Below are positions 56,719 to 57,290 of a DNA stretch of 64,000 bases, in pieces. The notes under the pieces are model-generated. The model was given only the letters and a program-made list of their open reading frames with translations, was not told where the DNA came from and did not search any database. Both the position numbers and the translations under genes were made by a program. The stretch is taken from assembly GCA_035221665.1 (NCBI GenBank), contig CM069137.1, positions 74,462,001 through 74,526,000 on the forward strand, given 5' to 3'. Within the stretch, counting starts at the first letter, position 1, and each line of letters starts with the position of its first letter. This DNA comes from Okamejei kenojei. Its lineage: Eukaryota.

Positions 56719-56804
56719 TTTGGATCTCTCTCGCTCTCACTCGCTCTCTCTCACCCTCTCGCTTCGGCATTCCCGGAACCATTTGGAGTTTTGCCGGGAT
56801 GGCT

Positions 56805-57290
56805 GCATCTGCGGTTCTTTCCTGGTGGGGGGTGTGGGGTTGTGGGAGGAACCCTGACCCGTGGCGGCTCCTGGTCCATTCCCTCTGCGGGTGTTGCCTG
56901 GCCCGCTGAGTTCCTCCAGCACTCTGTTTTTTGTTTAAATCTGGAGTTGAAGGTGGACGGGGGGGTGGGGGGGGGGGGGGGGGAAGCTGGGGTGGCTCTG
57001 TGGGACGGGTGGCGGCTCTAGTGAGTGGGTGGTGTTTCGGGTCGAGACCATTCTGCGGACCATTCTACTCTCACCGTCAAAGGTTCAGTACAATCTGAAG
57101 AAGGATCTTCTCTCCAGAGTTGCTGCCTGTCCCACTGAGTTACTCCAGCTTTATGTCTAAGTTCAATTTCAAGAGTTAAATAAAAAACAGAGTGCTGGAG
57201 GAACTCAGCGGGCTAGGCAGCATCTATGGGGGGAATGGATTAGGAGTTGTTTCGTGCCAGGGTTCTTCCATAGGAAGGAACTGCAGATCA
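56805..57290. repeat. Inverted pair of Penelope-derived repeats, left arm A-to-G hypermutated
   Basis: 56805-57030 aligns to the reverse complement of 57107-57290, including the exact block gcccgctgagttcctccagcactctgtttttt. Confidence 0.85.

What the first reader, a model, noticed from the sequence alone, without database searches (positions are those of the whole stretch)
56770..57290. Genomic fossil of ADAR-type A-to-G hyper-editing in one arm of an inverted repeat
Seen: hand alignment of the left arm to the reverse complement of the right arm gives roughly 20 or more A>G differences on the + strand and about 2 G>A. Examples: cgaaacaactcctaatcc > cgtggcggctcctggtcc; ggagtaactc > ggggtggctc; gacaggcagcaactc > gacgggtggcggctc. 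Other copies in this window (9315, 61070) carry A at these sites. Most surviving As follow a G. Knowledge: ADARs hyper-edit long dsRNA and disfavour a 5' G; inosine is copied as G by RT. Inference: an edited hairpin RNA was reverse-transcribed into the germline. The near-unedited right arm is unexplained, and a base-calling artefact at a hairpin must be excluded.
Basis: partly seen in the sequence, partly recalled or inferred. Interest (0 to 1): 0.78.

Follow-up and report, generated by a model that had tools for sequence, protein, structure and literature searches.

The report
RNA-editing fossil inside a DNA transposon
One arm of a 200-base hairpin has about 70% of its A's turned to G and almost nothing else changed, likely because an ADAR-edited RNA was once copied back into germline DNA, and DNA transposons have since spread that arm to at least 400 places in this genome.

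Summary
The A>G tract is real and is not a single-locus event. It lies inside a 2.5-kb non-autonomous hAT-type DNA transposon (55340-57856; 16-bp terminal repeats, 8-bp target duplication) that also carries a captured amine-oxidase exon piece. In the consensus of 51 copies, 33 of 48 A's of the left arm are G and only 3 of 135 other positions differ from the right arm, which is unedited. All copies that keep the arm carry the G state; the edited loop occurs at 403 places, in three related transposon families, and in short-read contigs of six organism labels, so a base-calling artefact is excluded. The parent repeat has A, the neighbouring exon piece has no A>G, and T>C is absent. Editing follows ADAR's 5' order (U>A>C>G, p=0.016), though G-avoidance alone is not significant. 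Best reading (0.7): one ancient ADAR-edited RNA was reverse-copied into one arm, then amplified as DNA. The unedited arm rules out retroposition of the whole hairpin. No precursor and no clear second event was found.

The parts
55340..57856 (+). Non-autonomous hAT-type DNA transposon (family A), internally deleted copy of a consensus of about 3.5 kb
   Evidence: Terminal inverted repeats and 8-bp duplication read; 8 further copies with matching 8-bp duplications; consensus
55332..55339 (.). Left copy of the 8-bp target-site duplication TGCAAAGT
57857..57864 (.). Right copy of the 8-bp target-site duplication TGCAAAGT
55340..55355 (+). Left terminal inverted repeat, starts CAGTGATGG
57841..57856 (-). 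Right terminal inverted repeat
   Evidence: sharp shared end in the copies; 230 exact matches of a 29-mer in the genome
55440..55703 (.). Second fold-back hairpin of the element, not edited (internal control: 5 A>G against 5 G>A in the consensus)
56390..56724 (-). Captured piece of a copper amine oxidase exon, no A>G change against its source genes
   Evidence: Pfam PF01179 E 2e-9; consensus 95.9% over 386 bp to genes at G000:C31:16.47-16.49 Mb, 0 A>G and 2 T>C among 16 differences
56807..57025 (+). Edited left arm: 33-34 of 48-49 A's are G in the founder; two G-runs grew out of edited A-rich stretches
57026..57108 (+). End of the left repeat piece and hairpin loop; keeps its A's
   Evidence: sequence, consensus and composition; no ancestral copy to compare
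57109..57288 (+). Unedited right arm; itself two opposed pieces of an abundant short repeat around a unique loop
   Evidence: 81 exact matches of its loop 27-mer
57395..57600 (.). Run of about seven CCAAT-box-like repeats, possible promoter (inferred, untested)
   Evidence: sequence, self-matches in the consensus

Best explanation
The left arm is a strand-specific A>G-converted copy of the right arm, fixed in the founder of a hAT-type DNA transposon lineage, and it likely came from one ADAR-hyper-edited RNA that was likely reverse-copied into that arm alone. Most likely order (inferred): a fold-back duplication made a near-perfect 200-bp hairpin in the element; its + strand transcript was edited along the duplex; a break or gap at the loop was filled by reverse transcription of the 5' arm from that transcript, while the 3' arm stayed original DNA. 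A variant (inferred, less likely): an antisense transcript of the right arm was edited in a sense-antisense duplex and inserted as the inverted copy. Afterwards cut-and-paste DNA transposons copied the fossil; later changes are ordinary decay (CpG reversion, G-run slippage). Shown: spectrum, direction, limits, single origin, carrier. Inferred: enzyme, RNA stage, repair route.
For: 33 of 48 A's are G with 3 of 135 other columns changed; the sister family shows that the T>G and the 1-base gap arose later in the right arm and that the C>T is later decay, leaving 34 A>G, 1 A>T and at most 1 other (read by eye). A>G 34 of 49 against T>C 1 of 45, p = 1e-12. 5' neighbour: T 8/8, A 11/14, C 7/12, G 8/14, trend p = 0.016, 0.021 without the G-run sites; ADAR's order is A=U>C>G (PMC2790459, passage). 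The tract matches the arm: the exon piece 80 bases away has 0 A>G in 386 bp, the element's other hairpin is symmetric. 20 of 33 edited A's are unpaired when the arm folds alone, so a full-length partner was needed; the two arms fold at z = -17. G state in 50 of 51 aligned copies, the other lacks the arm, in all 37 of 40 further copies that keep part of it (by eye), at 403 exact places, and in contigs of 8 runs, 6 organism labels with clear cover. Five adenosine-deaminase-domain loci exist in the genome. ADAR A>G carried through reverse transcription is reported for two avian retroviruses (PMC8586724, passage).
Against: About 70% of A's exceeds the 'up to 50%' quoted for ADARs on dsRNA (PMC2790459). 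5'-G avoidance alone is not significant (26/34 against 8/14, p = 0.16) and no 3'-G preference is seen. The partner arm is unedited, which needs an extra, unobserved step. No unedited precursor was found (0 hits; 1 hit, an ordinary repeat; no opposed pair among 81 loop matches). No clear second event: 0 of 153 other repeat copies, and 5 pattern hits gave one weak candidate. It is one event, so the context statistics rest on 48 sites. No transcript was shown.
Confidence: 0.7

Rival explanations
1. An error-prone DNA polymerase of the pol iota type made the left arm by copying the right arm during a template switch, putting G opposite most template T's. No RNA stage.
For: Explains at once why only one arm is changed and why the tract equals the arm. 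Pol iota inserts dGMP 3- to 10-fold over dAMP opposite T (PMC2194173, passage), which would give 75-90% A>G; 70% is seen. The element has several template-switch marks.
Against: The same paper shows pol iota adding only 1-2 bases in a gap and mis-inserting opposite most template bases; here 220 bases have at most 1 non-A change and 1 A>T. The 5'-neighbour trend fits ADAR. No in vivo tract of this length is known to me (recall).
Confidence: 0.1
2. Adenines were deaminated in the DNA itself, by ADAR acting on the DNA strand of an RNA:DNA hybrid over the left arm, and fixed by replication.
For: Same chemistry, same neighbour order, no reverse transcriptase needed, fits a DNA transposon.
Against: Needs 34 hypoxanthines to escape repair on one strand; ADAR on DNA is weak and favours mismatches (recall, not read here); does not say why the tract ends at the arm's limits.
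Confidence: 0.1
3. GC-biased gene conversion or slow compositional drift turned the arm G-rich.
For: GC-rich copies of the repeat with AT>GC changes exist (L144, L145); the arm holds G-runs.
Against: Those copies show A>G and T>C together; here 34 of 49 against 1 of 45. The change is confined to 220 bases and shared by all families.
Confidence: 0.03
4. An adenine-unfaithful reverse transcriptase, as in diversity-generating retroelements, copied an unedited RNA.
For: A template-and-variant pair that differs only at A's is the DGR pattern (PMC7826257, abstract start in listing); explains one changed arm.
Against: DGRs change A to any base and are prokaryotic (recall); here 34 A>G, 1 A>T, 0 A>C. 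The changed strand is also not what DGR chemistry alone predicts for a G-only outcome.
Confidence: 0.03
5. The direction is the reverse: APOBEC/AID-type G>A in the right arm.
For: G>A clusters in retroelements are common (PMC4866542, PMC2873906, passages).
Against: The consensus of 171 other repeat copies has A, as the right arm has.
Confidence: 0.01
6. Base-calling or assembly artefact at a hairpin.
For: None left.
Against: 403 places on both strands, copies 3-9% from the consensus with their own CpG decay, short-read contigs of 8 runs, among them one over 56731-56903 with 4 differences in 173 bases.
Confidence: 0.005

Closest known systems
ADAR A-to-G hypermutated avian retrovirus sequences (Felder 1994, RAV-1; Hajjar and Linial 1995, ALV)
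   Same: A>G cluster carried into DNA by reverse transcription (seen only as cited in PMC8586724; the originals are not held; that the ALV tract is limited to complementary sequence is recalled).
   Different: Those are viral and from culture. This is germline, fixed, shared by several organism labels, in host repeat sequence, and carried by a DNA transposon.
APOBEC-edited LTR retrotransposons in vertebrate genomes (Knisbacher and Levanon, PMC4866542; Zaranek et al., PMC2873906)
   Same: A deaminase footprint fossilised in genomic repeats, found as one-way, one-strand clusters polarised by a consensus.
   Different: Those are G>A in class I elements; that screen filtered for G>A and never names ADAR (0 occurrences). 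Here A>G, limited to a hairpin arm, in a class II element.
Hyper-edited RNA in inverted repeats (Porath et al., PMC4365171)
   Same: Dense A>G clusters in inverted repeats, with G depleted upstream.
   Different: There the genome keeps A and both arms are targets; here the genome holds G in one arm only, and no downstream G enrichment is seen.
Multicopy Pack-TIRs such as Pack-hAT-N8_XT (Tan et al., PMC8277862)
   Same: A hAT-type element with a captured host gene piece, spread with separate target duplications.
   Different: Only 4 multicopy cases were found in 100 animal genomes, with a few copies each, and capture is explained by DNA template switching (0 occurrences of 'cDNA'). Here about 100 or more places carry the exon piece and another part of the cargo likely passed through RNA.

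Membership tests
ADAR hyper-editing footprint | Dense one-way A>G on one strand, other changes rare | tested here: met
   33 of 48 A>G, 3 of 135 others; T>C 1 of 45
ADAR hyper-editing footprint | A is the ancestral state | tested here: met
   repeat consensus from 171 copies
ADAR hyper-editing footprint | Confined to sequence able to form a long duplex | tested here: met
   fold z = -17; exon piece 0 A>G in 386 bp; one site beyond the present partner is uncertain; the 45-base flank between exon piece and arm has no ancestor to compare
ADAR hyper-editing footprint | 5' neighbour order U, A > C > G | tested here: inconclusive
   trend p = 0.016; G against the rest p = 0.16
ADAR hyper-editing footprint | 3' G enrichment | tested here: inconclusive
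   3' G 11/16, A 10/13, C 6/10, T 6/8: no trend, little power at 70% saturation
ADAR hyper-editing footprint | Both strands of an intramolecular hairpin edited | tested here: not met
   right arm 0-1 of 45; so not a retrocopy of the whole hairpin
ADAR hyper-editing footprint | Inosine in RNA, dependent on ADAR | not testable with these tools
   ancient event; no RNA holder on record
Non-autonomous hAT transposon | 8-bp target-site duplication | tested here: met
   window plus 8 of 20 long loci, 4 more
Non-autonomous hAT transposon | Short terminal inverted repeats starting CAG | tested here: met
   16-bp repeats; that this start marks hAT is recalled
Non-autonomous hAT transposon | An autonomous partner with a hAT transposase and the same ends | tested here: inconclusive
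   12 loci picked by the left end gave only non-coding derivatives; no transposase search was run
Multicopy Pack-TIR | Host gene piece between the terminal repeats, with a parent gene elsewhere | tested here: met
Penelope-like or hammerhead-bearing repeat (the arm's raw material) | Hammerhead ribozyme or link to a Penelope reverse transcriptase | tested here: inconclusive
   Rfam gave no hammerhead match; a hammerhead-like core is seen by eye and the name is recalled; no link to an RT was tested

The most novel reading that the evidence does not exclude
A DNA transposon repaired or rebuilt one of its arms from its own ADAR-edited transcript in the germline: inherited proof of RNA-templated DNA synthesis in a class II element, with RNA editing written into the genome, breaking a fragile DNA palindrome and so letting the element and its nested descendants spread to hundreds of copies.
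Probability: 0.35. Interest if true: 0.85.

Novelty: new variant of a known kind. Interest (0 to 1): 0.66.

Why it matters
Deaminase fossils in animal genomes are known as APOBEC G>A in retroelements; ten literature searches here (open-licence library only) turned up no germline ADAR-type A>G tract and none in a DNA transposon. If the reading holds, an RNA edit became heritable, and part of a cut-and-paste element's cargo passed through RNA, which current capture models for Pack-TIRs do not include. The case is unusually legible: template and product lie side by side and hundreds of copies fix the founder state, so the enzyme can be tested directly. It also gives a simple screen (one-arm A>G excess in repeat consensus hairpins) for any repeat library. 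Against that: it is one old event with no shown function.

Tried and rejected
Searches for an unedited precursor: two junction patterns (0 hits; 1 hit, an ordinary repeat), 81 loop matches with no opposed pair, 40 of them fetched, none a non-transposon source, 40 of 230 right ends fetched: none found; exact patterns miss diverged copies. Searches for independent edited copies of the repeat: 153 copies in hand, two three-edit patterns (2 and 3 hits), none heavily edited; sensitivity is low and no matched control pattern was run. The palindrome scan is insensitive (the window's own arm scored 0.48 with 29 A>G against 1 G>A and was wrongly tagged non-family; 19 of 200 family-tagged halves passed). 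The idea that the arm's own internal hairpin was the substrate was rejected: surviving A's are more paired (0.59) than edited ones (0.40). Differences between families A and B at a few sites (56944, 56847-56851, 56983, 57011) were considered as signs of separately edited molecules; ordinary decay and G-run slippage explain them as well. Rfam: only chance miRNA-like hairpin matches below threshold. No RNA holder listed; expression is untested. No autonomous partner found. Earlier-findings look-ups were empty. Hajjar and Linial 1995 and two pol iota papers are not held. No supplements were read.

Full report
Observation. The window holds an inverted repeat with arms at about 56807-57025 and 57109-57288. 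Aligned to the reverse complement of the right arm, the left arm shows 28 A>G, 2 G>A, 2 T>C, 6 C>T and 6 A>T. The RNA of both arms folds into one long stem, z = -17 against 100 shuffles.

It is a family, not a locus. Either arm finds 40 of 40 scored places in the 2.76-Gb genome at 84-92% identity, and homology runs far beyond the hairpin to a sharp right end. The window copy spans 55340-57856, has 16-bp terminal inverted repeats starting CAGTGATGG and sits between two copies of TGCAAAGT. Eight of 20 long loci gave both ends with matching 8-bp duplications. These are the marks of a non-autonomous hAT element (family traits recalled; no autonomous partner found). The consensus of 18 copies is about 3.5 kb and is a patchwork: an unedited fold-back hairpin, microsatellites, a 386-bp piece of a copper amine oxidase exon 95.9% identical to genes on C31, the edited hairpin, and CCAAT-like repeats.

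The founder state. In the consensus of 51 distinct copies, 33 of 48 A's of the right-arm sequence are G in the left arm; one is T; 3 of 135 non-A columns differ. Copies lie 3.5-9.2% from the consensus. Fifty copies keep at least part of the arm and carry G at 73-100% of scored sites; reversions cluster at CpGs that the editing created. Thirty of the 60 source loci were picked by the right arm, so blind to the left arm's state. Forty more, picked by an exact match to the unedited loop (81 matches), all belong to the family; 37 keep part of the left arm and all show the G state (by eye). Of 230 exact right ends I fetched 40 from contigs C1-C4; 19 form a sister family B that keeps the edited arm but a shortened right arm, most of them nested in larger elements. 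A third derivative is nested in a younger 1.8-kb element with 95-97% identical copies and its own CAG-type terminal repeats. Family B shows that the T>G and the one-base gap between the arms arose later in the right arm, and that the C>T is decay of an edit-made CpG; so the arms first differed by 34 A>G, 1 A>T and at most one other base (by eye). The edited loop 23-mer occurs at 403 places, its reversed control at none. Contigs of 8 public runs cover the arm; at the window's residual A's (56847, 56857, 56937, 56938, 57020) most depth reads G in runs labelled A, B, C, E, G and H, and no majority A was listed at the arm-specific edited sites, though 41 and 12 table rows were hidden. An artefact is excluded, and the event is older than the split of those organisms if the labels are distinct species.

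Direction and limits. A consensus of 171 other copies of the abundant short repeat from which both arms are built has A where the left arm has G. The exon piece 80 bases upstream has 0 A>G among 16 differences from its source; the element's other hairpin has 5 A>G against 5 G>A; the loop keeps its A's. A>G 34 of 49 against T>C 1 of 45 gives p = 1e-12, which removes GC-biased conversion. None of 245 other inverted-repeat arms in 1.25 Mb had half its mismatches as A>G; a second, noisier scan gave 2 of 195 on small counts.

Context. Edited share by 5' neighbour: T 8/8, A 11/14, C 7/12, G 8/14; trend p = 0.016, T/A against C/G p = 0.03, G against the rest p = 0.16 (site table). This follows ADAR's order (PMC2790459 and PMC8586724, passages) but is weak, and there is no 3'-G enrichment, which hyper-edited RNA shows (PMC4365171, passages). 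Seventy per cent is above the 'up to 50%' quoted for ADARs. Each arm can fold on itself, but 20 of 33 edited A's are unpaired in that fold and survivors are more paired, so the substrate was a duplex along the whole arm.

Mechanism. The right arm has at most 1 edit in 45 A's, so the whole hairpin did not pass through edited RNA. Only the left arm did. I think the likeliest route is: fold-back duplication makes a near-perfect hairpin (such duplications recur in this lineage); the + strand transcript is hyper-edited; a break or gap at the loop is filled by reverse transcription of the 5' arm from that RNA (about 0.45). A variant is an antisense transcript of the right arm, perhaps from the CCAAT run, edited against sense RNA and inserted as the inverted copy (about 0.25). 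Both are inferred. The main rivals are pol iota-type copying (its G-over-A preference at template T fits 70%, but it adds 1-2 bases and errs at other bases, PMC2194173, passages) and deamination of the DNA strand of an RNA:DNA hybrid, 0.1 each. The genome has five adenosine-deaminase-domain loci and many reverse transcriptases.

How general. No unedited precursor. No heavily edited independent copy among 153 repeat copies or 5 pattern hits; one hit, L142, has 6 A>G among 8 differences in 45 bases, 3 of them forced by the pattern. So the event is rare and visible only because DNA transposons amplified it.

Known and new. Closest are A>G-hypermutated avian retroviral sequences (seen only as cited), APOBEC G>A fossils in LTR elements (PMC4866542, one passage; PMC2873906, passages) and multicopy Pack-TIRs (PMC8277862, passages). 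PMC5974252 (passages) gave no case of edited RNA fixed in the genome. Ten searches of the open library showed no germline ADAR-type tract and none in a DNA transposon; subscription papers were not searched. The repeats look to me like those of a skate or ray and the short repeat like a Penelope-derived one; both are recalled, and Rfam gave no hammerhead match.

Verdict. Observation confirmed; interpretation partly supported and reframed. A new variant of a known kind: an editing fossil, A>G, germline-fixed, in one arm of a hairpin carried by class II elements. Interest 0.66.

Noticed in passing
window 56390-56724 and G000:C31:16.47-16.49 Mb (L093-L098): A copper amine oxidase exon piece is carried by this hAT family; a Pfam search gave 102 matches, about 98 of them outside the parent cluster. 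A multicopy Pack-TIR with far more copies than the published animal cases. The parent cluster has two open copies and one frameshifted copy.
   Followed up: partly
L147-L185, L216-L226: Russian-doll nesting: derivatives of this element sit inside at least four larger elements with shared flanks; one is a young 1.8-kb element with CAGAGATGCCAAC ends and 95-97% identical copies.
   Followed up: partly
window 56825-56849 and 56959-56984: Two long, length-variable G-runs arose from A-rich stretches after A>G conversion, followed by slippage: editing as a source of poly-G microsatellites.
   Followed up: partly
L142:1494-1538 (G000:C33:6865356-6865400): Short repeat copy with 6 A>G among 8 differences in 45 bases; weak candidate for an independent edited copy.
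   Followed up: partly
window 56260-56390: A 120-base stretch of the element next to the exon piece looks coding and does not match the amine oxidase locus; possibly a second captured gene piece. Twenty bases of it are repeated just right of the right arm.
   Followed up: no
window 57187-57270: The outer half of the right arm has 6 A>G among 18 differences from the repeat consensus, mirrored in the left arm, so older than the duplication; subfamily variation or an earlier light editing round.
   Followed up: no
window 5976-6116, 9296-9387, 11573-11792, 16581-16752, 42853-42965, 47611-47717, 61034-61159: Very abundant short repeat, about 190 copies per Mb in the fetched DNA, often in opposed pairs, with a hammerhead-like core by eye but no Rfam match in the stretch scanned.
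   Followed up: partly
window 19925-23994: LTR-retrotransposon-like pol region (protease, RT, RNase H, integrase zinc domain) between 97% identical 186-base repeats, with an inverted piece of the repeat at 23544-23633.
   Followed up: no
window 59393-61010: Tc1-like element with 218-base inverted ends at 94% and a transposase remnant.
   Followed up: no
window 29960-30661: Open frame on the minus strand with a FAM110 N-terminal domain, E 8e-13: likely a host gene in the window.
   Followed up: no
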